Shown piece after piece: positions 764 to 52,181 of a stretch of DNA of 64,000 nt. The first letter of the stretch is position 1, and the number at the start of each line of letters is the position of its first letter. The stretch is taken from contig OZ037843.1 in NCBI GenBank assembly GCA_964035575.1, positions 1,178,001 through 1,242,000 on the forward strand, in the 5' to 3' direction. The notes below the pieces were generated by a model, which searched no databases, was not told where the DNA came from, and saw only the letters and a list, made by a program, of their open reading frames with translations. The stretch is from Rhynchopus sp. YZ270_cl-10. Lineage: Eukaryota. The position numbers and the translations under genes were made by a program.

Positions 764-2650
764 ATGCAGTATCACTCCCTGGTGCTGGTCACATATGTGT
801 TGGCGCTGCTGTGCCCGTTGCTGTGTGCGGGGTATCTGTTTGCTGCAGACCCGGACGTTGTGATATACCGACACGAGGTAGATGTGAACGAGACGGGCAA
901 CAAGACAGTCTTCTGCGACCTTGATACGCAGGTGTGCACCAACGGGGATGCACTCTGCGCACAGGGCGACAAGCTTGTGTTGGGGAGCGACTGTGATCCG
1001 ACCGGGTTCTGGACGGCCTTGCTGCTCCTGAAGTGGGTGTACATCTTTGTGTGGCTGACACGTCTGCCCATTCTCTTCACTTCTGTCATGCACGCGGTTG
1101 GCAAGGAAGGGAAGGTGACACCACCCCATAAGCTTGTGGACGTATGCAGCGTGGTCTCGCAGCTGGCTTCCTTCGCCGCCTTTGTGATATACGTCGGAGT
1201 GTTGTACGGGCGCATGCAATTCTTCGGGAGCGAGCAGCGAGTTGTCTACTTCCCCACAGGCTTCCCGGTCATGCTGTGGTACGTCATGCGACTCGATTTC
1301 GCCATATCGCTGCTACTGCCGCTTTGGTTCTTCTTGTCTGACTATTCCTTTGTATCGTGTCGATTGGCATTTTACGAACTGATAGTTGCGTCGCTTGTCT
1401 CTGCTGTGATCGCTTTCACGATGATACTGCACAACACAGAAATCATGGAAAATTACATGCCGTTTGTATATCTCCCTCTCTTAACATACCCGGTGTACTG
1501 GTACTTTTCCTCCTGGAGCTATTTAGGGGGCCTTGCGGAGTTGCTCACAGTGTGCAGCTTCTTTGTGTACACAGCGTCGTACTACGCGTTGGGCGTGGAG
1601 GACAGGGAGGACACCACCTACTTCATGTGTGCCCTCCACAAATTCCAAATGATGGCTCCGATGTGTCTGTTCTCGATAGCCCTTACCATTACGTCTGTGT
1701 GGGAGATCAGGCCGCAGAAGCAGATCTACAAGCCTATCACCTGGGAAGGGGTCTGTGCGATGCCTGAGCAACAAGCTGCCGCAGTCACTCTTGTCCTGAC
1801 TGCGATACATACTAAAGACTCTCGCACTCTCGAAGCCTTGCCCCAGGACACTCTCCACACTGCGTTCCATGGTGCGACGGTAGCTGAGATGAGTAGAATT
1901 GTGCAGTACTTTTGCGAAACCACAAACAGATTTGCGATCATTGTGGCCAGCAGAGTGCTCATCGACAGGAATGACCTGTTGGTGGACATGGACATCCCTG
2001 CTTCTCTGAAGTACAGACTCTTGAAAGCATGCGACGATGAAGCACTCTCAACACACGTGCTGGACAAGATTCCCATTGCTGAGTTGTGCAAAGCAATCAA
2101 CGACGTTGAGAGGAACCCAGACGAAGCACTGGACTACGTTGAAAAGTTTGGTTTCGTTGAGAAACTGATTCCTGAGTGCAAGGCTGTCCCTTCATGGCGA
2201 TACATGCTGCCGTTCGTGGGGAGTGCGCACACACCGCTGTGCGCTCTTCTTGCACGTGGATACAAGGAACTGCTTCCGAAGAAGAGGCTTTACATAGCAG
2301 CTGCTGTGATGTGGGTGTGTGTGTATCTGGCGGGTTTTTTGTTTTCGATCTACGTCTGTGTGACACTTGGGTTGGAGGAGGACACGGACGGAAGCATGCC
2401 GCTGTTCCTTGCGTTCCTTGTGCCGGCAGGTGTGCTGGTCTCGCACGACGTGGTGTCACCATCCCTTCGCCACGCGCTGTGCACACAACGAACAAGACGT
2501 GCTGCAAACAACCCTCCTTCTGTGAAGGTGAGAGAGTGGAGCCCAGACTTCACTTTGTCGCAGCCCCTGAATTACCCTCGAACAGTTAAGCGTGCGGATG
2601 TGACAATACAACTTGAAGATGTGGGTGTCCAGGGTGCAGATGATGTCTGA
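764..2650 (+). CDS. Polytopic membrane protein (~628 aa) with signal peptide, unknown function
   Basis: Long intronless ORF. The ATG at 764 follows an AC-rich tract. N-terminal hydrophobic signal (MQYHSLVLVTYVLALLCPLLCAG), a Cys-rich ectodomain, many TM segments, a soluble region and two further TMs. Confidence 0.8.
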   Translation: MQYHSLVLVTYVLALLCPLLCAGYLFAADPDVVIYRHEVDVNETGNKTVFCDLDTQVCTNGDALCAQGDKLVLGSDCDPTGFWTALLLLKWVYIFVWLTRLPILFTSVMHAVGKEGKVTPPHKLVDVCSVVSQLASFAAFVIYVGVLYGRMQFFGSEQRVVYFPTGFPVMLWYVMRLDFAISLLLPLWFFLSDYSFVSCRLAFYELIVASLVSAVIAFTMILHNTEIMENYMPFVYLPLLTYPVYWYFSSWSYLGGLAELLTVCSFFVYTASYYALGVEDREDTTYFMCALHKFQMMAPMCLFSIALTITSVWEIRPQKQIYKPITWEGVCAMPEQQAAAVTLVLTAIHTKDSRTLEALPQDTLHTAFHGATVAEMSRIVQYFCETTNRFAIIVASRVLIDRNDLLVDMDIPASLKYRLLKACDDEALSTHVLDKIPIAELCKAINDVERNPDEALDYVEKFGFVEKLIPECKAVPSWRYMLPFVGSAHTPLCALLARGYKELLPKKRLYIAAAVMWVCVYLAGFLFSIYVCVTLGLEEDTDGSMPLFLAFLVPAGVLVSHDVVSPSLRHALCTQRTRRAANNPPSVKVREWSPDFTLSQPLNYPRTVKRADVTIQLEDVGVQGADDV

Positions 2651-3193
2651 TGCGATGTGGACACTTCGTTGTGTTACTGACTCACGATGACGCACAAAGT
2701 GGCAACACGTAAATATTGCTCATGTGAACAGTATCCCAATGAAGCAGACATAACGCATGTTTGTTTTGTAACGCTTTCATGTCACGCAGAAGCATTCGCT
2801 TTCTTTTGCTTTGTTTTTTTTTAAATTATTTTTTGGTACACTGTCACGAGAGGGCTTTGTATTTTGAAGTCAATTTCATTATTGTGAAAATTTGTTTGTA
2901 AATCAAGATACTTGACAATAGGAAATAGAAACGACGGAAGGTGCACCTCCAGGTTGTGTTTTCTCTCCCGCTGTTTTTCTCGCACGCCAGCGAAAAAAAC
3001 ACATCAAGCTAGCGGAGCGATAAACGAAAAAGTTGTTTTTCATTGTTTTCTTTTTCTTCATATCCTGAAGTTGGTTTCTAGTTCCCATTGAGAGTGTCGA
3101 AATTCAAGGACACATGCTGCGAATCTTTTGTGTCAAGTCAACAATTGAGAGGTCTTTTCGTGTGTGAACTTTGGAAGTGGTGATTGCACAACT
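2649..3193 (+). repeat. Right copy of the direct repeat, with a ~260-bp insertion (about 2822-3082) and an internal deletion
   Basis: Visual alignment to 249-638. It begins at the stop codon of the enclosed gene. Confidence 0.85.
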
Positions 3194-3643
3194 GCGGCAA
3201 TTTTAGGGAATCTTACAAAAACTGTACCCCATTTTGTTGTATTTTGAGCAACAAGCAAAGAGTAACGAGTCTCTCGAGCATTCTAGGTCCTGCTGGACCT
3301 TAAATTGCATCCGGGTATCCATTCCTCCTCCCCCAATGGCGACGACCTGTCAGCGACCTGTCAATATCGACCCTCCCTGGAGCACCAAAAGAGAAAAATA
3401 CCCCCTCACAACTGTATTGTTCGTAGTAAGAAGCAAAACTGTGGCACCAGACCACGAGACTGCGAAATTGCCTCACAAGTCATATCTAGTACCCTGCCCC
3501 TCATGTACTTTTTTCTCTGCTTGATACGGCGGATAACGAACGTGTTCGCAGTGTGTACGTCCGAGGCTTTGGTGATTTGGGGAGACACGTCCACCAACCC
3601 GCTCACCAAAGTACCAACGGTGCCATATTCCGATAAAAATATA

Positions 3644-3741
3644 CAGTCATCCAACAAAGGTTGGGGTAAAAACCCACCAAATTTTTTTGAGCCCACCAAA
3701 TCCACCAACGTTTTTACCCACCAACGTTTGTTGGATGACTG
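3644..3741. mobile_element. 98-bp Tc1/mariner-like MITE
   Basis: TA|CAGTCATCCAACAAAGGTTGG ... CCAACGTTTGTTGGATGACTG|TA: TIRs with a TA duplication. Confidence 0.75.
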
Positions 3742-3967
3742 TAAAAACTTATCGCCACCATACCGTGAAAAAGGGCTTTTGTTGCTTTCTTTGCAGGGGG
3801 TGAGAGACTATCACCTACTACCCCCACCACCACCGCCAATACTAGACAATAGCAACACAAATCTGAAACGTTACTATCTCACTCGCTTGCTTCGTTTGGG
3901 TTGGGTTTGCGGATTGTCAGCACATTTGCCCACACACATCCACAGTGTTGCACCTTCATAACTAGGC

Positions 3968-6067
3968 ATGGGGTACCTATGGGAAGCGTTGTCTCTGGAC
4001 GGGACTGTGGGAAGAGCGGAGCGGAAGAAGCGTACCATCCTGCTGCTGTGCTGTGCATCGTGTGCGCTGTTCACACTCTCACGCTTCGCATCTACGTTGC
4101 AGAAGCGGCTGGACCGTGACCTTGAGATCGACCTGTTCTCGTACATCCTCGTGTTCTGTGCGAACCTGTACCCGGTGGTAGGGATTCTCTGCAAAAGACG
4201 GCTGACCACCACTGCCGTTGTCGCAGCGTTGTATACCATGGCCTTCGGGGTGGTCATGTGGGATCTGGACGCAAGGACCTACAAGGAAACGTCGTGGCCA
4301 TTGCTCGTGCTCGTGGTTGACCTGTTGCTTGTGATGCAGGTGCCTGCACGCTACAGTGTGGGGTTGGTGTGTGTGGCCATCGTGTGGTTAATGTTATTGT
4401 CATTGGATGAAAGCTTCAGGTTTGGTCTGCTCGACCTGCCTGGCCTGCAGCTGCAGGAAGAGCGGAGAAGGCGTCTGACCCGGCTCACATCCTGCGACAG
4501 GCTGCCGTGTGCAGTCGACTTCCCCGCGCACACGTTGTTCATTGGCCTCGGTGTCTTTGTGGTGGACTTCCTCGCAACACGTAGCTTTGCACGTGACGTT
4601 CTGAAGGAGCAGGCGGCCATGCAGCGTACGATCAACACAGTGCAGGACATCGCGTCCCTCCTGGCTGGGTACGACGTGGAAGGCGTGGCACGCATGCTGG
4701 AGGCGCAAGAGACGTTGCTCCCAGAGGAGATGCGCGCAACGCTGCAGACGTTGGAGGAGAACCTGCGGAAGTACCGTCCCTACCTCCCTGCTGCGCTGTT
4801 TGAGGAGGATGAGGTGGACGGTGTGCAGCACACATCTGTGGCACCACCTGGGCTTGAGAGTGAGACAGCAACGATTGTGTTCACAGACATCCGTGCCTCG
4901 ACGTCGATCTGGGAGTGTGCAGCTGATGGGATGCGTGCTGGTCTGAAGATACACAACCGCGTGATGCGTGAGGTGATGCAGATGTTTGGTGGGTACGAAG
5001 TGAAGACGATAGGTGACGCCTTTATGATTGCCTTCGAGACAACAGCAGACGGAGTTAACTTTGCTCTGCAGGTGCAGGAGAAGCTGCTCGCAGCAGACTG
5101 GCCTGCGTCGCTGCTTGAGGATGCACCCATCTGCACACCACAACACTCTCTGTGGGGTGGCCTCACTGTGCGCATTGGTGTCAACACCGGCCCTGTGACT
5201 GTCGAACAGAACACACTCACTGGACGAACAGACTACTTCGGACACACTGTCAACGTTGCGTCACGCCTTGAGAGCACATGCAAGCCTGGTGCTGTTGCTG
5301 TTCCCTCTGACCTGTGGACATCTGACTGTGGTGCGTGCAGTGGTGTTGTGGGTCATTCGGAAGCACTTGACCTGAAGGGTGTGAGCGGTGCGACGTTTGT
5401 GTGTCCTGTGTGGCCTGTGTCGCTTGTGGGCCGCAGGCAACAGCCCCTTTGCGAAGCTCCGGACAACAGAGACGGCCGCTGTGGTGGCGAGTCTGACTCT
5501 GTGTCGATGCAGCCCTTCTTTGGCACACTCGATTCCGTGGCACTGGCCCAGCAGAACCCTGCTCGTTTTCTTGGCACAGTCGGTGTTGCAGATCTTGCAG
5601 TGGGCGACGAGGAACACGTGTCCGCACTGCAGTCCATGAGCAGCGGGCTGTCGACACTGACTGTTGCACTGGACCAGAGTGGCGGCGGCCTGGTGACGCT
5701 GCTTGGCAGCCGTGTCTGCGTGTCGTGGAACGTGACCCGCTCTGCCCCTGCACACATGGAGAACGCGATCCGCTTTGCACAGCGCATGAGTGGTGCGACC
5801 TTGGCAGGTGCAGGGCTTGCAAGCGGGCCTGTGCAGCATGGTGATGTGGGGGCACGCAAGCAGCGCTTTGTGACGGTGATGGGGACAACTGTGCGCCGGA
5901 GCTGGACGCTGTGCGAAGAGGCTGTGCGCGACGGTGTGGTGTGTCTGTTTGAGCCTCCCGAGGGCACAACACTGCCGACTGCACTGGAGCACGTCCTATT
6001 GGCACACAACGCACGGACAGGTGTTTACAAGGTTGTATATCGTACGATCAGAGATAGTGTGATCTGA
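3968..6067 (+). CDS. Membrane class III adenylate cyclase (multi-TM N-terminus, intact catalytic domain, degenerate second cyclase-like domain), 699 aa
   Basis: TIVFTDIRAST (metal Asp1), YEVKTIGDAFM (ATP-specifying Lys, metal Asp2), VRIGVNTGPV, TDYFGHTVNVASRLES (specificity Asp, catalytic Asn and Arg). The C-terminal GLASGPVQHGDVG..VMGTTVRRS domain lacks these residues. Confidence 0.93.
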   Translation: MGYLWEALSLDGTVGRAERKKRTILLLCCASCALFTLSRFASTLQKRLDRDLEIDLFSYILVFCANLYPVVGILCKRRLTTTAVVAALYTMAFGVVMWDLDARTYKETSWPLLVLVVDLLLVMQVPARYSVGLVCVAIVWLMLLSLDESFRFGLLDLPGLQLQEERRRRLTRLTSCDRLPCAVDFPAHTLFIGLGVFVVDFLATRSFARDVLKEQAAMQRTINTVQDIASLLAGYDVEGVARMLEAQETLLPEEMRATLQTLEENLRKYRPYLPAALFEEDEVDGVQHTSVAPPGLESETATIVFTDIRASTSIWECAADGMRAGLKIHNRVMREVMQMFGGYEVKTIGDAFMIAFETTADGVNFALQVQEKLLAADWPASLLEDAPICTPQHSLWGGLTVRIGVNTGPVTVEQNTLTGRTDYFGHTVNVASRLESTCKPGAVAVPSDLWTSDCGACSGVVGHSEALDLKGVSGATFVCPVWPVSLVGRRQQPLCEAPDNRDGRCGGESDSVSMQPFFGTLDSVALAQQNPARFLGTVGVADLAVGDEEHVSALQSMSSGLSTLTVALDQSGGGLVTLLGSRVCVSWNVTRSAPAHMENAIRFAQRMSGATLAGAGLASGPVQHGDVGARKQRFVTVMGTTVRRSWTLCEEAVRDGVVCLFEPPEGTTLPTALEHVLLAHNARTGVYKVVYRTIRDSVI

Positions 6068-7453: not shown

Positions 7454-7889
7454 TTGAGGGGGGTTTTGGGCTCCAGCACCGCCACTGCAATGGAAGAGAA
7501 GACGCATGAAATCCACGTGGTCATCCATGTGGTTTGCCTGCACTACCGACAAGGTGAGGGAGCACGCTACCTCGTTCGCAGTGGAATAATGACTCACCGT
7601 TGTTCACGGATTCAGCCGCTGCACATAATGTAGCACAACGCTGGAGTTTTGACTGAGCTCGACTTATCTTCGCTCAGCAATCTTTGCGCACATTGAGGGA
7701 CCTACTTCTCAAGCAAGCTTTACCTCTGATGTTTCTTGATCACTGTGTATGGATGAACAGAATTTGACACACGTAGCTTTCCCCCTTCCACCTGTGCACA
7801 TTGTACCTTTCTTGTATCTTCCCTCCCTCACCACCCTCCCCCAAAGCCCGCACAGCACAGCAGGTACAAATTCAATTCAAACACAAAAC

Positions 7890-8927
7890 ATGGATCTGCA
7901 TGTGGTGTTTTCCGACGAGACACACGTGATTGAGGTGGCTCTGGCTGACACAACTGCGGACATGCGGCGGAAGGTGGCGTCTGCAGTGGGGCTGCCTGAA
8001 GGCAGCTTTGACATGAGCTTCGGAGGCGAAGTGATGGGAAAAGGAGCAGACGTGACGCAGCTGAGTGCTGGTAACACGATTGAGGTGTCGTTGACGATGA
8101 AGTTCGAAGCTGTGGCAGCGCTTCGTGCATTGGGTGAGGCAGACCTGACGTCCGAGAGGTTGAAGGAGGTGAGGGATCCTGAGGTGGCGCGTTTGCTTCT
8201 GCAGGCGGAGGTTGCGACTGTCATTCCTGATGAGTTCCTAGAAGGTTCATCGTTAACGCGACTTGATCTGAGTGCTGTGTCGACTGTCACGCGGATTGGC
8301 GGCAACTTTCTCTCCGGATGCAGCAGTGTAACAGCTCTCGACTTATCTTCACTCACCACTGTCACGCACATTGGGTACAACTTTCTCTCCAGATGCAAGA
8401 GTTTGACAGCTGTTGACTTATCTTCACTCGACAGCATCACACACACCGGCGACGGCTTCCTCTCCAGATGCTGGAGTCTCACAGCCCTCGACTTATCTTC
8501 ACTCAACAGGCTTGAGTGGATCGGAGACGATTTCCTAAAAGAATGCAGCAGTCTAACAGAACTAAATTTAACTTCTCTCAACAGCATCACACATACCGGG
8601 GACGGCTTTCTCTCCGGATGCTGGAGTCTCACAGCTCTCGACTTATCTTCACTCAACAGACTTGAGTGGATCGGTGATGATTTCCTGAAAGAATGCAGCA
8701 GTCTAACAGAACTAGATCTGTCTTCACTCGACAGTGTTATGCACATTGGCAAGGCGAACTTCTGCGAGGGTACAAACTTACAAACCATCCGCCTCTCTGG
8801 GTGCAGTGCTGTTGCGTTACGCGCTGTGAAGGAGGCCAACCTTAAGGTTGTGCCGGAGTCCCGTCCGAAACGGAAGCGAGACGAATCGCCTGACGAAGAC
8901 TGCAGGCGACTGAGACTGTCGCAGTGA
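7890..8927 (+). CDS. N-terminal ubiquitin-like domain + BspA-type (25-aa) leucine-rich repeats + basic NLS-like tail, ~345 aa
   Basis: MDLHVVFSDETHVIEVALADTTADMRRKVASAVGLP (beta-grasp pattern). Repeats LTxLDLSSLxxxxxIGxxFLxxCxS. RPKRKR near the C-terminus. ATG at 7890 after ACACAAAAC. Confidence 0.88.
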   Translation: MDLHVVFSDETHVIEVALADTTADMRRKVASAVGLPEGSFDMSFGGEVMGKGADVTQLSAGNTIEVSLTMKFEAVAALRALGEADLTSERLKEVRDPEVARLLLQAEVATVIPDEFLEGSSLTRLDLSAVSTVTRIGGNFLSGCSSVTALDLSSLTTVTHIGYNFLSRCKSLTAVDLSSLDSITHTGDGFLSRCWSLTALDLSSLNRLEWIGDDFLKECSSLTELNLTSLNSITHTGDGFLSGCWSLTALDLSSLNRLEWIGDDFLKECSSLTELDLSSLDSVMHIGKANFCEGTNLQTIRLSGCSAVALRAVKEANLKVVPESRPKRKRDESPDEDCRRLRLSQ

Positions 8928-9433
8928 CGTACCACGATACGGTGTGTGCCGGGTTGCACGACCGGCTGTGAAGGGTACAGCCTAGGCTAGGTCCGTCCGA
9001 AACAGAAGCGAGACGAATCACATCACAAAGACCGCCAACCGCACCGCGACACTTGCAGTAAAGGATCAGCCTTTGGGATTAGCACAGAGCAACAGCATCA
9101 GTGCAAGAGGGCCTCCTTGATCCAGCTGCAGACACACGGCTCACACCAAACTATTCCCTACTGTCAGTCGCTTTTTAAGCCAGTCACGATCACAAATCGT
9201 CGTTAGTTTGCAAAGGGCGAGAAGAAAGGATCCTCATATAAAAATAGGGCGGGGCTGCAGGGTTTCATAAATTTCACCCAACACCCGGCAGGTTTTCAAA
9301 AAAAGACTCCCTTTTTCAAGTGATATTTTCCGACTGCGACCTTTTGCACCAACCTCTCGAAACCCACGATCCCTTCCCAGCCTCCACACCACTTACGAAG
9401 GCAGGAATACACCTTTACACACCACAGTGCACA

Positions 9434-11149
9434 ATGGGCTGTCTCGAGCGTGCACTCTCGCTTGACGGGACACTGGACACGCATAGCAGACGTATACGAA
9501 AGCTTTACTTCATCTATAGCTGTGCGTCCTTTGTGGCCTCGTGTGTCTTCGTCCTGCTAGAAGTGTCCTCCTTCCGTGGGAGCTACGTCCTTCTGGCAGG
9601 TATTGCCTGCACTGTGTTCTCCAGCTTCTGTTCTCTGCTAGTCATTCTGTTAAAGTACGAACTGACCACGTTCGTCATGGTATCAGTCGGCGGACTGTAC
9701 GCTGTTGCGCTGCTGGCCTGTGACCTGAGTGCGCGCACAGAATATTTAGTTGTCTGGCCAATGATGGTGCTTTTGGTGGACTATCTCCTGGTATTGCAGC
9801 TGCCTGCACGGTACAGCACAGCTGCCGTGGTGTGCACACTGGTGTACATGTTTGTTATTGCTGCAGAAGAATCGTGGAGGTTTGGTCTGTTCGACATACC
9901 CGGGCTCATGCCTCAAGACCGTCGACGTTCCTACGCAGATAGCCTGGGTGACTGTGATGTGCTGCCTTGCAAGCAGAAGGGAGCTGTGTCAGAGCTTTTG
10001 GGTGCAGCATCCGTCTTCGTCCTTGACTTCATCGCAACGCGAAGCTTTGCACGTGATCTCCTGAAGGAGCAGACATCAATGCAACGCACAATCGCAACAG
10101 TGCAGGATATCGCCTCGCTCCTTGCTGGCTACGACGTGGAGAAGGTGGCGGAGCTGCTGGAGGAGCACGGTGGTGAGCTGCCTGACGGGATGACGACAGC
10201 ACTGCGGAAGTTGGAGCAGAACCTGCGTGTGTACAAGGCGTACCTCCCGAAGACGTGTCTGCCGTTTGAGGACGAGAAGGACGAATGTGTGGAACCTGGT
10301 GGTGGGCAGGATGGTGCTGACAGTGACGACTCAAGCACAGTGTCAGCAGCAACATCGAACACGTCTGCTGCAGTGCAACCCACTTTGTTCCGTGCACAGC
10401 CTCTCCTGCTCTCATCCACAAAGGCAACACTGCTGACACTGAACATCAAAGACACCCTGCACCGCCTGGAGGAGGACAGTGCACGCTTCTCCGACCTCTT
10501 CACAACTGTTCTTCTGAAGACCCTGCAGGCAACAGACAGCAGACGTGGGATGGTGGACGTCTTTGTTGGGGACAGGATCCACTGCTCGTTCAACGCGTCG
10601 AAGCAGTGTGCGTCGCACGCAACCTCAGCACTGCACGCAGCAAGCATGCTCATGAGAGCTGGCCTGGCAGCCTCTGTGAACGTGGGTGTTGCAATGGGGA
10701 CAGTGCTGCGTGGTGACATGGGTTGTGATGTGATGCGCCGCTTCAGCATGGTGGGGACACTTGTGCGTGACGTGCACGGGATGGAACGTGCAGGACGTAT
10801 GCTGGGGTGCGACGTTGTCTGCAACCGGATGTGCTTCAGCGACGCTGAGTGCGAACACGACCTGCGTCTGCTTCCGTGCAAGGTGGAGGTTGCTCGAGAC
10901 TGCGAGGCACAGGTTGTGGCTGAGCTGGTTTCGAAACAACAGAACACTCCCGGTACAGACGAGTGGATGTACCAGATAGGCGGGAAGAAGCACTGGGATT
11001 TGTACAACACAGCAGTGCGTGGGTACCTGCGTGGTGAGAGTTGTGACACGGACGTTGCGAAGGCGTGGGTGGAGGCGGGTGGGAGTGGCACACCAGCACA
11101 CGCAGTTCCTTGTGGGACGTGCAGTGTTGTGTGTTCCTATCTTCGGTGA
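9434..11149 (+). CDS. Membrane pseudo-adenylate cyclase, copy 1 (~571 aa)
   Basis: TM region homologous to 3968-6067 (WPMMVLLVDYLLV, ESWRFGLFDIPGL, CDVLPC, FVLDFIATRSFA, NLRVYKAYLP). Single degenerate cyclase domain (LTLNIKDT, VDVFVGD, VGTLVRDVHGME). Confidence 0.9.
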   Translation: MGCLERALSLDGTLDTHSRRIRKLYFIYSCASFVASCVFVLLEVSSFRGSYVLLAGIACTVFSSFCSLLVILLKYELTTFVMVSVGGLYAVALLACDLSARTEYLVVWPMMVLLVDYLLVLQLPARYSTAAVVCTLVYMFVIAAEESWRFGLFDIPGLMPQDRRRSYADSLGDCDVLPCKQKGAVSELLGAASVFVLDFIATRSFARDLLKEQTSMQRTIATVQDIASLLAGYDVEKVAELLEEHGGELPDGMTTALRKLEQNLRVYKAYLPKTCLPFEDEKDECVEPGGGQDGADSDDSSTVSAATSNTSAAVQPTLFRAQPLLLSSTKATLLTLNIKDTLHRLEEDSARFSDLFTTVLLKTLQATDSRRGMVDVFVGDRIHCSFNASKQCASHATSALHAASMLMRAGLAASVNVGVAMGTVLRGDMGCDVMRRFSMVGTLVRDVHGMERAGRMLGCDVVCNRMCFSDAECEHDLRLLPCKVEVARDCEAQVVAELVSKQQNTPGTDEWMYQIGGKKHWDLYNTAVRGYLRGESCDTDVAKAWVEAGGSGTPAHAVPCGTCSVVCSYLR

Positions 11150-14483: not shown

Positions 14484-15960
14484 ATGGGCTGTCTCGAGTG
14501 TGCACTGTCGCTTGACGGGACACTGGACAAACAAAGCAGACAAAAACGAAGGCTTTACTTTATATGTTGTTTTGCGACCTTTGCAGCCTCGTCTGCCTTC
14601 TTCCTGATAGAGCTGGCATCCTTCCGTGGGAGCTACGTCCTCATGGCAGGTCTTGCCTGCACTATGCTGTACAGCTTCTATTCTGTGCTAGTCATTCTGT
14701 TAAAGTACGAACTGACCACGTTCAGCATGGTGTCAGCCACTGTTGCGCTGCTGGTCTGTGACCTGAATGCTCGCACTGAGTACGGATACGTCCAATGATG
14801 GTGCTTTTGGTGGACTATCTCCTGGTATTGCAGCTGCCTGCACGGTACAGCACAGCTGCCGTGGTGTGCACACTGGTGTACATGTTTGTTATTGCTGCAG
14901 AAGAATCGTGGAGGTTTGGTCTGTTCGACATGCCCGGGCTCATGCCTCAAGACCATCGACGTTCGTACGTAGATGGCCTGGGTGACTGTGATGTGCTGCC
15001 TTGCAAGCAGGAGAAAGCTGTGTCAGAGCTTTTGGGTGCAGCTACCGTCTTCGTCCTTGACTTCATCGCAACGCGTGGCTTTGCACGTGGTCTCCTGAAG
15101 GAGCAGGCATCAATGCAGCGCACAATCGCAACAGTGCAGGACATCGCCTCGCTCCTTGCTGGCTACGACGTGGAGAAGGTGGCGGAGCTGCTGGAGGAGC
15201 ACGGTGGTGAGCTGCCTGAGGGGATGACGACAGCACTGCGGAAGTTGGAGCAGAACCTGCGTGTGTACAAGGCGTACCTCCCGAAGACGTGTCTGCCGTT
15301 TGAGGACGAGAAGGACGAATGTGTGGAACCTGGTGGTGGGCAGGATGGTGCTGACAGTGACGACTCAAGCACAGTGTCAGCAGCAACATCGAACACGTCT
15401 GCTGCAGTGCAACCCACTTTGTTCCGTGCACAGCCTCTCCTGCTCTCATCCACAAAGGCAACACTGCTGACACTGAACATCAAAGACACCCTGCACCGCC
15501 TGGAGGAGGACAGTGCACGCTTCTCCGACCTCTTCACAACTGTTCTTCTGAAGACCCTGCAGGCAACAGACAGCAGACGTGGGATGGTGGACGTCTTTGT
15601 TGGGGACAGGATCCACTGCTCGTTCAACGCGTCGAAGCAGTGTGCGTCGCACGCAACCTCAGCACTGCATGCAGCAAGCATGCTCATGAGAGCTGGCCTG
15701 TGAACGTGGGTGTTGCAATGGGAACAGTGTTGCGTGGTGACATGGGTTGTGATGTGATGCGCCGCTTCAGCATGGTGGAGTGGATGTACCAGATAGGCGG
15801 GAAGAAGCACTGGGAGGACTACAACATAGTGGTGCGTGGGTACCTGCGTGGTGAGAATTGTGACACGGACGTTGCGAAGGCGTGGGTGGAGGCGGGTGGG
15901 AGTGGCACACCAGCACACGCAGTCCCTTCCGTGACGTGCAGCGTTGTGTGTTACTCCTTT
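14484..15960 (+). pseudogene. Pseudo-cyclase copy 2, disrupted
   Basis: Relative to intact copies: 12-bp deletion at about 14738, 4-bp frameshift deletion at about 14791, 10-bp frameshift deletion at about 15699, and ~207-bp deletion at about 15777. Confidence 0.92.
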
Positions 15961-20730: not shown

Positions 20731-21404
20731 CACCAACACCCCACCCCTCCACAGAACAGCCTCTGCCTCATCCTCCCTGCCTCCCTCCCCTTGCGATGTC
20801 TGGGGAGGGGATCGACTGACCACCAAAAGGACAACATACGCAAAGTGCGACACATCAGCAGACACGCCTTCAACAAGGAGAAGGCAGTTTCGACCACGTA
20901 AAGCGGGGGAGAAGCTCAGTTGCAGAAGACGGTGTACACCTCGAGTCGACACTGACCACACAGGAAACCCTGGGGTACACGCAAATCTCACTGGATGTAT
21001 CGTGTGCTGGGAGCAGTGGTCCATCACTTCTGGTTCACCAGTATGTTGAAGCCGCATCCCACCTTCTTGAAAGGGTTCCCTTTTGCTCGCATCCTTTGCA
21101 ACTGAGGAGAGAACATCATACCACCCCCGTCAGGATGATTTGGTGGAAGTAGTTGCGTCAGGCAGTGAAGAACCCTGGGACGAGCTTCGTAGCTTGCCCA
21201 CGGAGGCAACTCCGATACTCCCGTTTGTTGATTGGGTGAGTAGCACAAACGTGTGGACACGACGTCGAAGCTGATTTCTGTAAGTACCCCTTACCCTCCA
21301 GACCTCCGTGGATGGGAAGCCAGTGCAGACCACTCCAAATGAAGCACACACCAACCTCCACACTTACGAAGGCAGGAATACACCTTTACACATCACAGTG
21401 CACA

Positions 21405-23123
21405 ATGGGCTGCCTCGAGCGTGCACTGTCGCTTGACGGGACACTGGACACGCATAGCAGACGCAGACGACTGATTTATTTTATCTTCAACTGTGTGCTT
21501 TGTGCAGCATCGTGTCTGTTTACTGTGATTCAGGCGTTAACCTTTCATGACAGGTATCTGTACTTGGGAGGGATTCTTGCGTCTGTGTTGAACGGTGTCT
21601 GTTCTATTTTAGTCGTGACGTTCAGGTGCAAGCTGACCACGTTCATCATTGTTGCAGGGTGTGTGGTGTACGCACTTGCGCTGCTGTGTATAGACATGAC
21701 TGGACGCACTGAGTACGTATCCATGTGGCCGTTGATGGTTCTTGTGGTGGACTTTCTCTTGGTAATGCAGGTGCCCACACAGTACAGCACAATTGTCGTG
21801 GTGTGCACACTGGTGTATTTGGTCATCATCACTGCAGAAGAAACGTGGAGGTTTGGTCTGCTCGACATACCCGGGCTCGAGTCTCAAGAGCATCGACGTT
21901 CCTACTTAGAGAGCATGGGTGACTGTGATGTGCTGCCTTGCAAGCAGAGTAAAGCTGTTAACCAATTTGGAATTGCAGCATTGGTCTTTGTTCTTGACTT
22001 CATCGCAACTCGAGGCTTTGCACGTGGTCTCCTGAAGGAGCAGGCATCAATGCAACGCACAATCGCGACAGTGCAGGACATCGCCTCGCTCCTTGCTGGC
22101 TACGACGTGGAGAAGGTGGCGGAGCTGCTGGAGGAGCACGGTGGTGAGCTGCCTGAGGGGATGACGACAGCACTGCGGAAGTTGGAGCAGAACCTGCGTG
22201 TGTACAAGGCGTACCTCCCGAAGACGTGTCTGCCGTTTGAGGACGAGAAGGACGAATGTGTGGAACCTGGTGGTGGGCAGGATGGTACTGACAGTGACTA
22301 TCAGAGCACAGTGTCAGCGGCAACATCGAACGCGTCTGCTGCAGTGCGACGCACTTCCTTTTGGTTGCAGCCTCTCCTGCTCTCATCCACAAAGGCAACA
22401 CTGCTGACACTGAACATCAAAGACACCCTGCACCGCCTGGAGGAGGACAGTGCACGCTTCTCCGACCTCTTCACAACTGTTCTTCTGAAGACCCTGCAGG
22501 CAACAGACAGCAGACGTGGGATGGTGGACGTCTTTGTTGGGGATAGGATACACTGCTCGTTCAACGCGTCGAAGCAGTGTGCGTCGCACGCAACCTCAGC
22601 ACTGCATGCAGCAAGCATGCTCATGAGAGCTGGCCTGGCAGCCTCTGTGAACGTGGGTGTTGCAATGGGGACAGTGCTGCGTGGTGACATGGGTTGTGAT
22701 GTGATGCGCCGCTTCAGCATGGTGGGGACACTTGTGCGTGACGTGCACGGGATGGAACGTGCAGGACGTATGCTGGGGTGCGACGTTGTCTGCAACAGGA
22801 TGTGCTTCAGCGACGCTGAGTGCGAACACGACCTGCGTCTGCTTCCGTGCAAGGTGGAGGTTGCTCGAGACTGCGAGGCACAGGTTGTGGCTGAGCTGGT
22901 TTCGAAGGAAGAAGAAGCCCCAACTGCAGCTGACGAGTGGATGTACCAGATAGGCGGGAAGAAGCACTGGGAGGACTACAACATAGTGGTGCGTGGGTAC
23001 CTGCGTGGTGAGAGTTGTGACACAGACGTTGCGAAGGCGTGGGTGGAGGCGGGTGGGAGAGGCACACCAGCACACGCAGTTCCTTCCGGGACGTGCAGTG
23101 TTGTGTGTTCCTATCTTCGGTGA
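21405..23123 (+). CDS. Membrane pseudo-adenylate cyclase, copy 3 (~572 aa; most divergent TM region)
   Basis: Intact ORF from the conserved MGCLERALSLDG start. C-terminal two-thirds nearly identical to copy 1. Confidence 0.9.
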   Translation: MGCLERALSLDGTLDTHSRRRRLIYFIFNCVLCAASCLFTVIQALTFHDRYLYLGGILASVLNGVCSILVVTFRCKLTTFIIVAGCVVYALALLCIDMTGRTEYVSMWPLMVLVVDFLLVMQVPTQYSTIVVVCTLVYLVIITAEETWRFGLLDIPGLESQEHRRSYLESMGDCDVLPCKQSKAVNQFGIAALVFVLDFIATRGFARGLLKEQASMQRTIATVQDIASLLAGYDVEKVAELLEEHGGELPEGMTTALRKLEQNLRVYKAYLPKTCLPFEDEKDECVEPGGGQDGTDSDYQSTVSAATSNASAAVRRTSFWLQPLLLSSTKATLLTLNIKDTLHRLEEDSARFSDLFTTVLLKTLQATDSRRGMVDVFVGDRIHCSFNASKQCASHATSALHAASMLMRAGLAASVNVGVAMGTVLRGDMGCDVMRRFSMVGTLVRDVHGMERAGRMLGCDVVCNRMCFSDAECEHDLRLLPCKVEVARDCEAQVVAELVSKEEEAPTAADEWMYQIGGKKHWEDYNIVVRGYLRGESCDTDVAKAWVEAGGRGTPAHAVPSGTCSVVCSYLR

Positions 23124-45018: not shown

Positions 45019-46104
45019 ATGGACATCACAGGATACTTCGAGTCAGCCAGCTGTGTGATAGAAGTGGACGGGAGGGACACCCTTGCACAGGTGAAGGGGA
45101 AGCTTCTTGCGGAGCTTGGCGTGCCACGTGCTCGGCATGTTGGTGTGCGGATGAAAGGCGGTGGCGACATCGGCAACGACGACTTGCGCATCTGCGACAC
45201 GGAGATGGATGAGGGATGTGCCGTTGAGCTGTACTACACTGGTGTGAACATCAGTCCTGGGGTGATACCACATATGGGTCAGACTTTCTCTGTCACACTG
45301 TCCCCGTGCCATAAGTACCTTGCAGAGATGTCGTGGACTGAGAAGCATGTGTACATCTTCGACACAGAAACACACGAGCGTCTCTGCCACTTTCCTTGCA
45401 AGTATATTTATACCCCAGCATTCTCACCGTGCAGTGAGTGGATCTCATCAATCAACAAGGACACGCAGTGTGCTGAAGTTCATAACGTGAAGACAGGTGC
45501 ACTGGAGCACTGTTTTGGACTTAAACGTGATGGGCCTTACACTACAGCATGGTCACCCTGTGGAACACAGCTGTTGTCGTGTTGCCAGGGCAAGGGTTTG
45601 CAGGTGTGGGACATTGCAACAGGTGTTGTTGTGCACGAATGGGACCACATTGTGGACAGCAACTACTTCATGCTTGTGACAGGCAACAGGGTGGCGGTGT
45701 TTTGCAATAGCAGCAAAGACATCACCATTTGGGATTACACGACAGGGGTGGAGGTGCTGGTTCTGACATGCCCTTCTGATGTTCATTATGTAGCACTGAC
45801 ACCAAACGAGCATTTCATTGCAGCGTGTTGCACTGACTGTGTGCGTGTCTGGAACATTGAAACAGGCGAATGTGTCTTTGAAGACGTCTCAGACAACGAG
45901 TGGACTGACGTTGCAGTGTCGAACGACATTGTTGCTGCCTACTCTTCATGTTTGAGCTTGTGGTCCATTTCAACAGGAGAGCGACTGCTGCACCGTGAAT
46001 GTGAGACCGATTCTTGTGGTCTTGCAATCAGCAGCTGTGGTGGTGTGGTGATGTACGCAGGGAGGGAAGGTGTTGAGATTGTTGACGTCTCACACCTGTC
46101 TTGA
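45019..46104 (+). CDS. Ubiquitin-like domain + WD40 beta-propeller protein, copy 1 (361 aa)
   Basis: ~75-aa beta-grasp-like N-terminus, then WD-type repeats (YIFDTET, QVWDIATG, TIWDYTTG, RVWNIETG, SLWSISTG). Confidence 0.9.
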   Translation: MDITGYFESASCVIEVDGRDTLAQVKGKLLAELGVPRARHVGVRMKGGGDIGNDDLRICDTEMDEGCAVELYYTGVNISPGVIPHMGQTFSVTLSPCHKYLAEMSWTEKHVYIFDTETHERLCHFPCKYIYTPAFSPCSEWISSINKDTQCAEVHNVKTGALEHCFGLKRDGPYTTAWSPCGTQLLSCCQGKGLQVWDIATGVVVHEWDHIVDSNYFMLVTGNRVAVFCNSSKDITIWDYTTGVEVLVLTCPSDVHYVALTPNEHFIAACCTDCVRVWNIETGECVFEDVSDNEWTDVAVSNDIVAAYSSCLSLWSISTGERLLHRECETDSCGLAISSCGGVVMYAGREGVEIVDVSHLS

Positions 46105-46441
46105 ATCCCTTCCACAACGGAAAGGTGCCATTTAATTTTGTATCACCATCCTGCACCTTGCCTGGGTAACTAACTCCACACGGGAAGATACGTGAAGATA
46201 GATGCACATGTCTCTCGTTGTGGGAGTGGGTTGGCAATGGAGATGGCACCGTTCCGCTGTGGCTTTTGCACATGCGAAGCGCAAACCCGTCATGGTGTGG
46301 GAGGGTGGGAGGGACCTCTAACTGGGCTGTTTTTTTTCAAATGACAACACATCTCGTTTCCTTCACAAACACCACCCCACCCTTCTTCAATCTACCCTCC
46401 ACACACACCATTCCCCACAGAACAGAGTTACTCCCCTGAAC

Positions 46442-47527
46442 ATGGACATCACAGGACACTTCGAGTCAGCCAGCTGTGTGATAGAAGTGGACGGGAGGGA
46501 CACCCTTGCACAGGTGAAGGGGAAGCTTCTTGCGGAGCTTGGCGTGCCACGTGCTCGGCATGTTGGTGTGCGGATGAAAGGCGGAAGCGACATCGGCAAC
46601 GACGACTTGCGCATCTGCGACACGGAGATGGATGAGGGATGTGCCGTTGAGCTGTACTACACTGGTGCGAACATCACTCCTGGGGTGATACCACTTGCAG
46701 GTGAGATTTTCTCCGTCACACTCTCCCCGTGCCATAAGTACCTTGCAGTGATGTCAACTGAGGAGCACAATATTATGTCTATCTTCGACACAGTAACACA
46801 TGAGCGTCTGTGCCACTTCCCTGGATGTCTGGGCACCCCAGAATTCTCACCGTGCAGTGAGTGGATCTCATCAGTCAACGAGGACACGAAGTGTGCTGAA
46901 GTTCATGACGTGAAGACAGGTGCACTGGAGCACTCCTTTGGAGATGAAGGTGATGGACCGTTTTTTGCAGCATGGTCACCCTGTGGAACACAGCTGTTGT
47001 CGTGCTGCAAGAGCAAGGGTTTGCAGGTGTGGGACATTGCAACAGGTGTTGTTGTGCATGAATGGCATATTGTAGCCTTCAGCAACTACTTCATGCTTGT
47101 GACAGGCAACAGGGTGGCGATGTTTGGTGATAACAGTGAAGACATCACCATTTGGGACTACACGACAGGGGTGGAGGTGCTTGTTCTGACATGCCCTTCT
47201 GGTGCTCAGTATGCGGCACTGACACCAAACGAGCGTTTCATTGCAGCGTGTTGGATCGACTGTGTGCGTGTCTGGAACATTGAAACAGGCGAATGTGTCT
47301 TTGAAGACGTCTCAGACAACGAGTGGACTGACGTTGCAGTGTCGAACGACATTGTTGCTGCCTACTCTTCATGTTTGAGCTTGTGGTCCATTTCAACAGG
47401 AGAGCGACTGCTGCACCGTGAATGTGAGACCGATTCTTGTGGTCTTGCAATCAGCAGCTGTGGTGGTGTGGTGATGTACGCAGGGAGGGAAGGTGTTGAG
47501 ATTGTTGACGTCTCACACCTGTCTTGA
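46442..47527 (+). CDS. Ubl-WD40 protein, copy 2 (361 aa)
   Basis: Tandem paralogue, 1423-bp unit spacing from copy 1. Confidence 0.9.
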   Translation: MDITGHFESASCVIEVDGRDTLAQVKGKLLAELGVPRARHVGVRMKGGSDIGNDDLRICDTEMDEGCAVELYYTGANITPGVIPLAGEIFSVTLSPCHKYLAVMSTEEHNIMSIFDTVTHERLCHFPGCLGTPEFSPCSEWISSVNEDTKCAEVHDVKTGALEHSFGDEGDGPFFAAWSPCGTQLLSCCKSKGLQVWDIATGVVVHEWHIVAFSNYFMLVTGNRVAMFGDNSEDITIWDYTTGVEVLVLTCPSGAQYAALTPNERFIAACWIDCVRVWNIETGECVFEDVSDNEWTDVAVSNDIVAAYSSCLSLWSISTGERLLHRECETDSCGLAISSCGGVVMYAGREGVEIVDVSHLS

Positions 47528-47621
47528 ACCCACTTCCACAATGGAAAGGTGCCATCTGGACTTAGAACTGGGCGAGGAGTTATTATTCCTTTTTTCTTTT
47601 GTTTTTTTTTTAAAGCAGATA

Positions 47622-48564: not shown

Positions 48565-49644
48565 ATGGACATCACAGGACACTTCGAGTCAGCAAGCTGT
48601 GTGATAGAAGTGGACGGGAGGGACACCCTTGCACAGGTGAAGGGGAAGCTTCTTGCGGAGCTTGGTGTGCCACGTGCTCGGCATGTTGGTGTGCGGATGA
48701 AAGGCGGAGGCGACATCGGCAACGACGACTTGCGCATCTGCGACACGGAGATGGATGAGGGATGTGCCGTTGAGCTGTACTACACTGGTGCGAACATCAC
48801 TCCTGGGGTGATACCACTTGCGGGTGAGACTTTCTCCCTCACACTCTCCCCGTGCGATAAGTACCTTGCAGTGATGTCGACTGAGCAGCATGTGTACATC
48901 TTCGACACAGAAACACGTGAGCGTCTGTGCCACTTCCCTGGATTTCTGTGCGTCCCAGCATTCTCACCGTGCAGTGAGTGGATCTCATCAGTCAACGAGG
49001 ACACGAAGTGTGCTGAAGTTCATAACGTGAAGACAGGTGCACTGGAGCACTCCTTTGGAGATGAAGGTGATGGACCGTATATTACGGCGTGGTCACCCTG
49101 TGGAACACAGCTGTTGTCGTGCTGCAAGAGCAAGGGTTTGCAGGTGTGGGACATTGCAACAGGTGTTGTTGTGCATGAATGGCACATTGTGGACTGGAGC
49201 GACTACTTCATGCTTGTGACAGGCGACAGGGTGGCGGTGTTTGGCGATAGCAGCAAAGACATCACCATTTGGGACTACACGACAGGGGTGGAGGTGCTTG
49301 TTCTGACATGCCCTTCTGCTGTTTGTTATGCGGCACTGACACCAAACGAGCGTTTCATTGCAGCGTGTTGCACCGACTGTGTGCGTGTCTGGAACATTGA
49401 AACAGGCGAATGTGTATTTGAAGACGTCTCAGAAAACTGGTGGACTGACGTTGCAGTGTCGAACGACATTGTTGCTGCCTACTCTTCATGTTTGAGCTTG
49501 TGGTCCATTTCAACAGGAGAGCGACTGCTGCACCGTGAATGTGAGACTAACAATTCTTGCGGTCTTGCAATCAGCAGCTGTGGTGGTGTGGTGATGTACG
49601 TAAGGGAAGGTGTTGAGATTGTTGACGTCTCACACCTGTCTTGA
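48565..49644 (+). CDS. Ubl-WD40 protein, copy 3 (359 aa)
   Basis: Tandem paralogue with an intact ORF. Confidence 0.9.
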   Translation: MDITGHFESASCVIEVDGRDTLAQVKGKLLAELGVPRARHVGVRMKGGGDIGNDDLRICDTEMDEGCAVELYYTGANITPGVIPLAGETFSLTLSPCDKYLAVMSTEQHVYIFDTETRERLCHFPGFLCVPAFSPCSEWISSVNEDTKCAEVHNVKTGALEHSFGDEGDGPYITAWSPCGTQLLSCCKSKGLQVWDIATGVVVHEWHIVDWSDYFMLVTGDRVAVFGDSSKDITIWDYTTGVEVLVLTCPSAVCYAALTPNERFIAACCTDCVRVWNIETGECVFEDVSENWWTDVAVSNDIVAAYSSCLSLWSISTGERLLHRECETNNSCGLAISSCGGVVMYVREGVEIVDVSHLS

Positions 49645-49811
49645 ACCCACTTCCACAATGGAAAGGTGCCATCTGGTTCGTGCAAGAAGTTCTATCTCTT
49701 ATTTTTTCAAATGACAACACATCTCGTTTCCTTCACAAACACCACCCCACCCCTCTTCAATCTACCCTCCACACACACCTGTCCCCACAGAACAGAGTTA
49801 CTCCCCTGAAC

Positions 49812-50900
49812 ATGGACATCACAGGACACTTCGAGTCAGCAAGCTGTGTGATAGAAGTGGACGGGAGGGACACCCTTGCTCAGGTGAAGGGGAAGCTTCT
49901 TGCGGAGCTTGGCGTGCCACGTGCTCGGCATGTTGGTGTGCGGATGAAAGGCGGAGGCGACATCGGCAACGACGACTTGCGCATCTGCGACACGGAGATG
50001 GATGAGGGATGTGCCGTTGAGCTGTACTACACTGGTGCGAACATCACTCCTGGGGTAATCCCACACGTGGACAGCCCGTTCTCCCTCACACTCTCCCCGT
50101 GCGATAAGTACCTTGCAGTGGCGTGGGATGCGGGTGTGTCTGTCTTCGACACGGAGACCCATGAGAGGTGCTGCACCTTTCGATTGGAGGGCACCTGGGT
50201 CACAGCGTTCTCACCGTGCAGTGAGTGGATCTCCTGCAGCAACGAGAGCGCGGAGTGCATCGAAGTGCGCCGTGTGAGGACCGGTGCATTGGAGCACTCC
50301 TTGCCCTCCAGTCATCCTGGGTGCATGCGCGTTACCGCATGGTCTCACTGTGGAACGATGCTGTTGTCGGGCCCGCAGGTGTGGGACATTGCAACAGGTC
50401 GTGTTGTGCATGAGTGGCCTGACATAGGGAACAGCTTTAAGGACTGCTACGGTGCCTTTGGAGTGGCTGGCAACAAAATGGTGACGATTGGTGGGACGAA
50501 GCGTGTGACCGTATGGGACTACACAACAGGAACGGAGGTGCACGCTCTTGTGTGTCCCAGTTGTCCGAATAATGTGGCATTGGCGCCGAACCAGCGTTAC
50601 GTTGCAGCGTGCTTCGACGAAAGTGTGCGTGTCTGGGATATCGAAACAGGTGAATGTGTCTTTGAACACCTCTCAGGTCTTTATGTTCCATGGGCGGACA
50701 TCGCAGTGTCCAACGACGTTGTTGCAGCTTACACATCTAAGAACGTGACGTTGTGGTCCATCTCAACAGCAAAGCAGTTATGTTCATATACCCTGCAGAG
50801 CTTTGGTGTCTTCGGGCTGGCACTGAGTAGCTGTGGAGGTGGGCTGATGTACGCAGATGAGGGCGGAGTTAAGATCGTGGACATCTCACACCTGACGTGA
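49812..50900 (+). CDS. Ubl-WD40 protein, copy 4 (~362 aa; identical Ubl, divergent propeller)
   Basis: Start placed at the conserved MDITGHF ATG (49812). Sequence diverges after PGVIP. Confidence 0.9.
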   Translation: MDITGHFESASCVIEVDGRDTLAQVKGKLLAELGVPRARHVGVRMKGGGDIGNDDLRICDTEMDEGCAVELYYTGANITPGVIPHVDSPFSLTLSPCDKYLAVAWDAGVSVFDTETHERCCTFRLEGTWVTAFSPCSEWISCSNESAECIEVRRVRTGALEHSLPSSHPGCMRVTAWSHCGTMLLSGPQVWDIATGRVVHEWPDIGNSFKDCYGAFGVAGNKMVTIGGTKRVTVWDYTTGTEVHALVCPSCPNNVALAPNQRYVAACFDESVRVWDIETGECVFEHLSGLYVPWADIAVSNDVVAAYTSKNVTLWSISTAKQLCSYTLQSFGVFGLALSSCGGGLMYADEGGVKIVDISHLT

Positions 50901-51095: not shown

Positions 51096-52181
51096 ATGGA
51101 CATCACAGGACACTTCGAGTCAGCAAGCTGTGTGATAGAAGTGGACGGGAGGGACACCCTTGCTCAGGTGAAGGGGAAGCTTCTTGCGGAGCTTGGCGTG
51201 CCACGTGCTCGGCATGTTGGTGTGCGGATGAAAGGCGGAGGCGACATCGGCAACGACGACTTGCGCATCTGCGACACGGAGATGGATGAGGGATGTGCCG
51301 TTGAGCTGTACTACACTGGTGCGAACATCACTCCTGGGGTGATACCACTTGCAGGTGAGATTTTCTCCGTCACACTCTCCCCGTGCCATAAGTACCTTGC
51401 AGTGATGTCGACTGAGAAGCATGTGTATATCTTCGACACAGAAACACATGAGCGGCTGTGCCACTTCCCTGGCCTTCGTTTTTGCACCCCAGCATTTTCA
51501 CCGTGCAGTGAGTGGATCTCATCAGTCAACGAGGACACGCAGTGTGCTGAAGTTCATGACGTGAAGACAGGTACACTGGAGCACTCCTTTGGAGAAGAAG
51601 GTACGAGGCCTTACACTACAGCATGGTCACCCTGTGGAACACAGCTGTTGTCGTGTTGCGAGAGCAAGGGTTTGCAGGTGTGGGACATTGCAACAGGTGT
51701 TGTTGTGCATGAATGGGACCACATTGTGGACAGCAACGACGTCATGCTTGTGACAGGCAACAGGGTGGAGGTGTTTATTTTTAGCAGCGAAGACATCACC
51801 ATCTGGGACTACACGACAGGGGTGGAGGTGCTTGTTCTGACATGCCCTTCTGATGTTCAGTATGCGGCACTGACACCAAACGAGCGTTTCATTGCAGCGG
51901 GTTGCACCGACTGTGTGCGTGTCTGGAACATTGAAACAGGCGAATGTGTATTTGAAGATGTCTCAGAAAACGGGTGGACTGACGTTGCCATGTCGAACGA
52001 CATTGTTGCTGCCTACTCTTCATGTTTGAGCTTGTGGTCCATTTCAACAGGAGAGCGACTGCTGCACCGTGAATGTGAGGCCAACGCTTCTTGCGGTCTT
52101 GCAATCAGCAGCTGTGGTGGTGTGGTGATGTACGCAGGGAGGGAAGGTGTTGAGATTGTTGACATCTCACACCTGTCTTGA
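51096..52181 (+). CDS. Ubl-WD40 protein, copy 5 (361 aa)
   Basis: Tandem paralogue. Its 5' flank differs from the other copies and its 3' flank matches copy 1. Confidence 0.9.
   Translation: MDITGHFESASCVIEVDGRDTLAQVKGKLLAELGVPRARHVGVRMKGGGDIGNDDLRICDTEMDEGCAVELYYTGANITPGVIPLAGEIFSVTLSPCHKYLAVMSTEKHVYIFDTETHERLCHFPGLRFCTPAFSPCSEWISSVNEDTQCAEVHDVKTGTLEHSFGEEGTRPYTTAWSPCGTQLLSCCESKGLQVWDIATGVVVHEWDHIVDSNDVMLVTGNRVEVFIFSSEDITIWDYTTGVEVLVLTCPSDVQYAALTPNERFIAAGCTDCVRVWNIETGECVFEDVSENGWTDVAMSNDIVAAYSSCLSLWSISTGERLLHRECEANASCGLAISSCGGVVMYAGREGVEIVDISHLS

What the first reader, a model, noticed from the sequence alone, without database searches (positions are those of the whole stretch)
7890..8927. 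The same Ubl module is fused to a different repeat scaffold (LRR) 37 kb away
Seen: MDLHVVFSDETHVIEVALADTTADMRRKVASAVGLP aligns without gaps to the WD40 proteins' MDITGHFESASCVIEVDGRDTLAQVKGKLLAELGVP (13/36 identical; MD-x4-F-x5-VIEV-x3-DT-x-A-x4-K-x5-G-x-P). Neither has a diGly at the domain end. Inference: a lineage-specific adaptor domain shuffled onto interchangeable binding scaffolds, by analogy with F-box-LRR and F-box-WD40 proteins. If genome-wide, this would be a previously undescribed modular receptor family.
Basis: partly seen in the sequence, partly recalled or inferred. Interest (0 to 1): 0.8.

Follow-up and report, generated by a model that had tools for sequence, protein, structure and literature searches.

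The report
Two huge ubiquitin-headed variable receptor families
This protist gene belongs to one of two families of hundreds of genes, each with a constant ubiquitin-like head on a repeat scaffold that varies on one surface; they likely form a large set of intracellular target-binding receptors, but the two heads are only distant relatives, not one swapped module.

Summary
The 13/36 match is real but overstated. Over the whole domain the two Ubls are 27% identical. Most shared residues are ubiquitin's own. LRR-type Ubls score higher against ubiquitin (mean 64) than against WD40-type Ubls (52), and this copy is atypically close, ranking 7 of 157. No L-type head sits on a propeller or W-type head on an LRR (0 of 296); no third scaffold was found. 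Distant sisterhood of the two heads is possible (tree 94/88, four rare shared residues) but fragile. The real finding is larger: 348 Ubl-LRR and 252 Ubl-WD40 protein clusters, unnamed and apparently lineage-restricted. Both have a constant head and a variable binding face: 37 of 66 propeller top-loop positions are hypervariable against 0 of 58 bottom-loop positions. 81 of 120 LRR members end in an NLS-like tail. This resembles F-box receptor expansions, but with no cullin-binding domain, no diGly and no I44 patch. The head's partner, the targets and expression are untested.

The parts
7890..8927 (+). Ubl-LRR gene (L family), 345 aa, intact single-exon ORF; the only L copy in the window
   Evidence: closest paralogues 78-81% identical over residues 1-110
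7890..8099 (+). N-terminal ubiquitin-like domain (aa 1-70); no diGly; Ser at the ubiquitin I44 position
   Evidence: Pfam; PDB alignment; beta-grasp strand and helix order in the model, low pLDDT here
8103..8204 (+). Three-helix linker or N-cap (aa 72-105), as conserved as the Ubl across paralogues; no Pfam match
8253..8777 (+). Seven 25-residue BspA/TpLRR-type repeats; repeats 3-4 and 5-6 are an internal duplication (20 of 150 nt differ)
   Evidence: fold matches 4fs7 Z 18.4, rmsd 3.1, 213 aligned, and TpLRR 6mlx Z 16.5
8862..8924 (+). Basic C-terminal tail with a bipartite-NLS-like pattern (localisation predicted, not shown)
   Evidence: 81 of 120 paralogues against shuffled mean 16.6, max 25
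45019..46104 (+). Ubl-WD40 gene WD1 (W family)
46442..47527 (+). Ubl-WD40 gene WD2: Ubl aa 1-74, then a seven-bladed propeller with hypervariable top loops
48565..49644 (+). Ubl-WD40 gene WD3
49812..50900 (+). Ubl-WD40 gene WD4: Ubl coding DNA identical to WD5's, propeller from a distant subfamily (pS 0.48)
51096..52181 (+). Ubl-WD40 gene WD5; its upstream flank differs from that of WD1-4

Best explanation
The gene is one member of two separately expanded families, Ubl-LRR and Ubl-WD40, each with a conserved ubiquitin-like head and a repeat scaffold that varies on one face; they likely act as intracellular receptors whose variable face binds diverse, probably foreign, proteins while the uncleavable head is predicted to dock on a fixed host machine, most likely of the ubiquitin-proteasome system, so that the target is removed. 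Shown: the architecture, family sizes, constant head, one-face variability, sequence exchange among WD40 copies, and an NLS-like tail in most LRR members. Inferred: target binding, foreign targets, nuclear location of the LRR family, the head's partner and degradation. The two heads are at most distant sisters and are not exchanged between scaffolds.
For: 348 L clusters (E<=0.001, of 2012 candidates) and 252 W clusters (E<=10, of 279); the 120 listed of each are unnamed and, apart from the window's own, ENA-only. Mean column entropy: L head 0.68, LRR 1.51; W head 0.18, propeller 1.07. In 115 non-window W paralogues, 37 of 66 d-a and b-c loop positions have entropy >=2 bits against 0 of 58 a-b and c-d loop positions (strands from the model; that d-a and b-c loops form the ligand-binding top face is recalled knowledge). 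In 448 LRR units, positions 14, 17, 18, 21, 22 and 24 carry 3.1-3.8 bits while core positions are nearly fixed. Conserved propeller codons show pN below pS in all ten window pairs. NLS-like tail in 81 of 120 L and 0 of 120 W. Precedents for a Ubl as handle: midnolin with Rpn11 (PMC12088389, passages); Rsa4/Ytm1 with Rea1 (PMC4737154, passages).
Against: No partner or target was identified. The I44 position is Ser/Arg/Gly in all 16 L representatives and Lys/Arg in all 9 W representatives (W register uncertain), which argues against canonical ubiquitin-receptor binding (role of I44 recalled). Positive selection is not shown: at hypervariable codons pN is about equal to or below pS, and pS itself is raised. 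The W head's near-invariance is partly gene conversion (0 of 53 synonymous sites differ between WD4 and WD5), so it is not proof of a fixed partner. 25 of 296 headed proteins lack their scaffold and look truncated or mis-called. The two heads share few surface residues, so one common partner is doubtful.
Confidence: 0.45

Rival explanations
1. One reading: one lineage-specific Ubl adaptor was placed on several repeat scaffolds, and all members bind the same partner, as F-boxes bind Skp1.
For: L and W form one side of a branch against 35 and 25 generic Ubls (94/74; 94/88). Their consensuses share 4 residues that are rare (<=5%) in the generic set, a count reached by 2 of 3532 generic pairs; three lie in the first hairpin. 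The W profile scores L domains at median 12.5 bits against 7.0 for generic ones.
Against: Support is unstarred and falls to 22% and 53% of bootstrap trees when columns 1-17 or 39-62 are dropped. AU tests do not reject L with ubiquitin (p 0.133) or W with another long group (p 0.145). Both stems are long. The generic set is mostly tandem polyubiquitin-like repeats picked by the joint profile. 0 of 296 crossed fusions; no third scaffold among the 150 best representatives.
Confidence: 0.2
2. Mostly neutral birth-and-death arrays: tandem duplication and gene conversion inflate the families and homogenise the head, and variability reflects tolerance in loops, not a recognition role.
For: Head DNA homogenised across distant propellers; low correlation of distances between protein segments in W (Spearman 0.13-0.29); no pN>pS; many fragments.
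Against: Variability is confined to top loops while equally exposed bottom loops are fixed (37 of 66 against 0 of 58), with matching periodicity in the LRR; all six window genes are intact.
Confidence: 0.2
3. The Ubl is a trafficking header as in Crinkler/CR proteins, and these proteins are delivered into prey, host or symbiont cells to bind targets there.
For: CRN proteins have an N-terminal Ubl header, variable C-termini, a recombination hotspot at the junction and nuclear targeting (PMC5289972, passages); here too exchange breaks near the head-scaffold junction and L carries an NLS-like tail.
Against: No enzymatic toxin domain on either family; no LxLFLAK motif in the aligned heads; no Crinkler Pfam hit at E<=5.
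Confidence: 0.15

Closest known systems
F-box-LRR / F-box-WD40 and BTB/MATH adaptor expansions (e.g. Caenorhabditis; PMC12951971, passages)
   Same: Constant N-terminal module plus variable repeat domain; hundreds of tandem, fast-turnover copies; proposed immune role.
   Different: The head is a Ubl, not an F-box or BTB; no cullin link shown; the two heads are only about 27% identical and are not interchanged.
Rsa4/NLE1 and Ytm1/WDR12 (PMC4737154, passages)
   Same: N-terminal Ubl plus WD40 propeller; there the Ubl is a handle for the AAA ATPase Rea1. Rsa4 (4wjs) was rank 4 in the fold search.
   Different: Conserved ribosome assembly factors with an invariant job; 16% identity, score within the crowd of generic propellers; no NLE Pfam hit; the W family is multi-copy and hypervariable.
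Midnolin (PMC12088389, passages)
   Same: Ubl, then a substrate-catching domain, then a C-terminal helix; Ubl used as a proteasome handle without ubiquitination.
   Different: One gene with a Catch domain; no homology shown; proteasome binding untested here.
Crinkler/CR proteins (PMC5289972, passages)
   Same: Ubl header, expansion by recombination, nuclear targeting.
   Different: CR C-termini are varied enzymes; here each head has one non-enzymatic repeat scaffold.
FNIP/FGxxFN and BspA/TpLRR repeat repertoires (PMC9525666, passages)
   Same: Large LRR repertoires whose most variable residues lie just before a conserved Phe, some fused to F-boxes in giant viruses; BspA-type fold.
   Different: 25-residue repeat with GxxFLxxC; Ubl head and NLS-like tail instead of an F-box, kinase or surface anchor.

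Membership tests
Ubiquitin-like (beta-grasp) domain | Ubiquitin-family sequence profile and fold | tested here: met
   Pfam PF00240 weak in the window copies and above cut-off in P0383, P0378, P0393, P0398; hhalign to generic Ubls 99% (L) and 96.5% (W); strand and helix order in the L model. The W head is poorly modelled.
Conjugatable ubiquitin-like modifier | C-terminal diGly | tested here: not met
   0 of 120 L and 1 of 120 W
Proteasome-shuttle UBL proteins | Hydrophobic residue at the I44 position (feature recalled) | tested here: not met
   Ser/Arg/Gly in 16 of 16 L; Lys/Arg in 9 of 9 W, register uncertain
Proteasome-shuttle UBL proteins / midnolin-like | Physical binding to proteasome subunits | not testable with these tools
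   No genome or cognate subunit sequences held
SCF F-box receptors | F-box domain | tested here: not met
   No F-box Pfam hit at E<=5 in the five queries, nor in the linker at E<=0.05
SCF F-box receptors (works-like) | Constant adaptor end with a variable substrate-binding face | tested here: met
Single shared adaptor family (L+W) | The two heads share one lineage-specific origin | tested here: inconclusive
Single shared adaptor family (L+W) | Same head type on different scaffolds | tested here: not met
   0 of 296 headed proteins crossed
Rsa4/NLE1, Ytm1/WDR12 | NLE-type Ubl with the MIDAS-binding glutamate | tested here: inconclusive
   No NLE Pfam hit; fold similarity generic; the glutamate's equivalence was not mapped on a structure
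Crinkler/CR proteins | LxLFLAK-type header with enzymatic toxin C-terminus | tested here: not met
BspA/TpLRR class | LRR_5 profile and TpLRR fold | tested here: met
   PF13306 in 120 of 120 listed; top five VIA matches are bacterial LRR or surface proteins, TpLRR among them, Z 15.6-18.4

The most novel reading that the evidence does not exclude
A protist has built an innate-immune-like repertoire of several hundred receptors that needs no cullin adaptor: a lineage-specific Ubl handle, fused long ago to LRR (nuclear) and WD40 (cytosolic) scaffolds, carries captured viral, symbiont or transposon proteins straight to a degradation machine, while sequence exchange reshuffles binding faces behind a constant head.
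Probability: 0.22. Interest if true: 0.85.

Novelty: new variant of a known kind. Interest (0 to 1): 0.58.

Why it matters
Intracellular recognition in free-living protists is poorly known. Known mass expansions of variable receptors mostly use F-box, BTB or NLR modules. Two families of hundreds of Ubl-headed receptors with one-face diversification would add a different coupling principle. A single pull-down with the nearly invariant WD40-family head would show which machine they feed.

Tried and rejected
No whole genome is held, so no proteome-wide Ubl census was possible. The joint-profile search gave 1367 hits at E<=0.001 and 389 at E<=1e-10, but only the best 150 were visible: 46 single-domain L or W proteins and 104 tandem ubiquitin-like repeats. 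Further Ubl-headed families could lie below that cut. A search for L-type heads in proteins over 604 aa found none of 46 candidates; it missed the known 1126-aa P0390, so it is insensitive. Viral contigs: 2 loci from 118 stretches, both chance matches to a helix of a phage protein between portal-like and capsid-like genes (my reading); rejected. Metagenome contigs: 0 of 431. ESM Atlas: best scores 0.78 and 0.82, leads only. Sequencing runs: no RNA holder listed; 1951-5754 contig records per run lay on 2.8 kb of the WD40 array in 4 runs of unrecorded kind, which says nothing on expression. A search of the window for a spliced-leader-like motif gave 0 matches and is not used. Earlier findings: nothing on this genome or sequence; one Naegleria F-box note with no bearing. 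No complex prediction was run, as no cognate partner sequence was available. Cluster look-ups gave no names for 18 proteins. The lineage was not established by any search; 'diplonemid-like euglenozoan' is my inference from co-oriented, intron-poor tandem genes and recalled gene types.

Full report
Setting. The window is eukaryotic DNA with intron-poor genes, the long ones all on the + strand and often in tandem arrays. No genome is held for it. I infer a diplonemid-like euglenozoan from this layout and from recalled gene types; no call shows it.

The observation. ORF 7890-8927 encodes 345 aa: Ubl (1-70), three helices (72-105), seven 25-residue repeats (122-296), a capping helix and a basic tail. 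The repeats are BspA/TpLRR type by Pfam (E 2.3e-22) and by fold (4fs7 Z 18.4, rmsd 3.1, 213 aligned; model from a single sequence, mean pLDDT 71). Five Ubl-WD40 genes lie at 45019-52181; the model of one, from an 80-row alignment, has a confident seven-bladed propeller and a poorly resolved head. The 13 of 36 identities are real and beat 5000 shuffles, but identity over the domain is 27%.

Is it the same module? I took generic Ubls from a full-library search with a joint profile and compared dereplicated sets of 16 L, 9 W and 106 generic domains, drawn from 157, 124 and 608. Mean alignment scores were L-W 52.3, L-ubiquitin 64.1, W-ubiquitin 52.7, L-generic 49.9 and W-generic 42.0. The L profile scored W at 17 bits and generic domains at 16; the W profile scored L at 12.5 and generic at 7. 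For the window pair (55), 24 of 106 generic domains score as well against the LRR head and 7 of 106 against the WD40 head. The window's LRR copy ranks 7 of 157. Of 296 stored proteins with either head, 141 were L head with linker and LRR, 130 W head with propeller, 25 lacked a scaffold, and none was crossed. So the heads are not one interchangeable module.

Evidence the other way. Two trees place L and W together against generic Ubls, with support 94/74 (52 rows, 34 of 105 other generic rows drawn at random) and 94/88 (38 rows, register-anchored), neither starred. The consensuses share four residues rare in the generic set (ubiquitin positions 2, 8, 14, 43), reached by 2 of 3532 generic pairs; position 43 depends on an uncertain register, and three or more is reached by 41 of 3532. 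The grouping falls to 22% without columns 1-17 and 53% without columns 39-62, and AU tests do not reject two alternatives (p 0.133, 0.145). An old common origin is possible, not shown.

What is really there. The L head plus linker finds 348 clusters at 90% identity and the W head 252. All 120 listed L hits carry LRR_5; 119 of 120 W hits carry propeller families. None is named. Several longest-contig lengths recur in both lists, and 36 L and about 49 W hits share one length each (my count), which suggests large tandem arrays in one or a few assemblies. These are automatic gene calls and include fragments. The window's L gene is a lone copy.

Pattern of variation. Heads are constant and scaffolds variable (entropy 0.68 against 1.51 in L; 0.18 against 1.07 in W). 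In W the variation sits on the propeller's top loops: 37 of 66 positions against 0 of 58 on the bottom loops. [quoted passage not shown] Repeat number varies among paralogues. 81 of 120 L proteins end in a bipartite-NLS-like pattern against 16.6 in shuffles; no W protein does.

Exchange between copies. WD4 and WD5 have identical head DNA but propellers at pS 0.48, and the divergence begins just after the head. Distances in different W segments correlate weakly (0.13-0.29). Gene conversion therefore homogenises the head and mixes blades. At hypervariable codons, chosen from the 115 non-window paralogues, pN was 0.17-0.20 and pS 0.16-0.26 among the four close copies, against pN 0.02-0.04 and pS 0.03-0.10 at conserved codons. 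Positive selection is thus not shown; raised pS fits patches exchanged from diverged donors.

Mechanism. I commit to variable intracellular receptors whose uncleavable head docks on a fixed machine, most likely of the ubiquitin-proteasome system (0.45). DiGly is absent and the I44 position is polar or Gly, so neither conjugation nor ordinary shuttle binding is expected. Ubl handles with other interfaces exist: midnolin on Rpn11 (PMC12088389, passages) and Rsa4/Ytm1 on Rea1 (PMC4737154, passages). Rivals: a single shared adaptor (0.2), neutral arrays (0.2), a CRN-like export header (0.15; PMC5289972, passages).

Literature. Ten searches (listings seen) returned no description of these families; three were aimed at comparison systems. 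The D. papillatum genome paper has no occurrence of ubiquitin, leucine-rich or WD40 in its main text (PMC10161547, term search and passages); I did not open its supplements, which may list such families. Subscription papers are largely outside the library.

Verdict. Observation partly confirmed, interpretation partly supported. The claimed shuffling of one module is not borne out, but it points to a real and apparently undescribed pair of large Ubl-headed variable-surface families: a new variant of a known kind, interest 0.58.

Noticed in passing
window 9434-11149, 14795-15703, 21312-23123, 23524-25236, 25706-27430; 3968-6067: Tandem paralogues with several predicted membrane segments and a variable N-terminal part. 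The gene at 3968 carries an adenylate/guanylate cyclase domain (E 5.9e-26); the one at 9434 had no Pfam hit at E 0.05. Possibly a receptor-cyclase array with degenerate catalytic domains.
   Followed up: partly
window 7640-7695 and 8993-9035: A degenerate piece of the same LRR lies upstream of the L gene and an 86% identical copy of its basic tail lies downstream: relics of earlier copies.
   Followed up: partly
window 52317-52501: The upstream flank shared by WD1-WD4 recurs (94-100% identical) before the unrelated gene at 52650, while WD5 has a different flank.
   Followed up: partly
protein P0390: An L-type Ubl joined to a reverse transcriptase domain (E 7.2e-20); probably a retroelement insertion joined by gene calling.
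   Followed up: partly
window 27979-29367: A second, unrelated LRR protein with a hydrophobic N-terminus and no Ubl.
   Followed up: no
window 60488-62236: Kinesin-3-like motor; best solved relatives KIF14, KIF13B, KIF1A.
   Followed up: no
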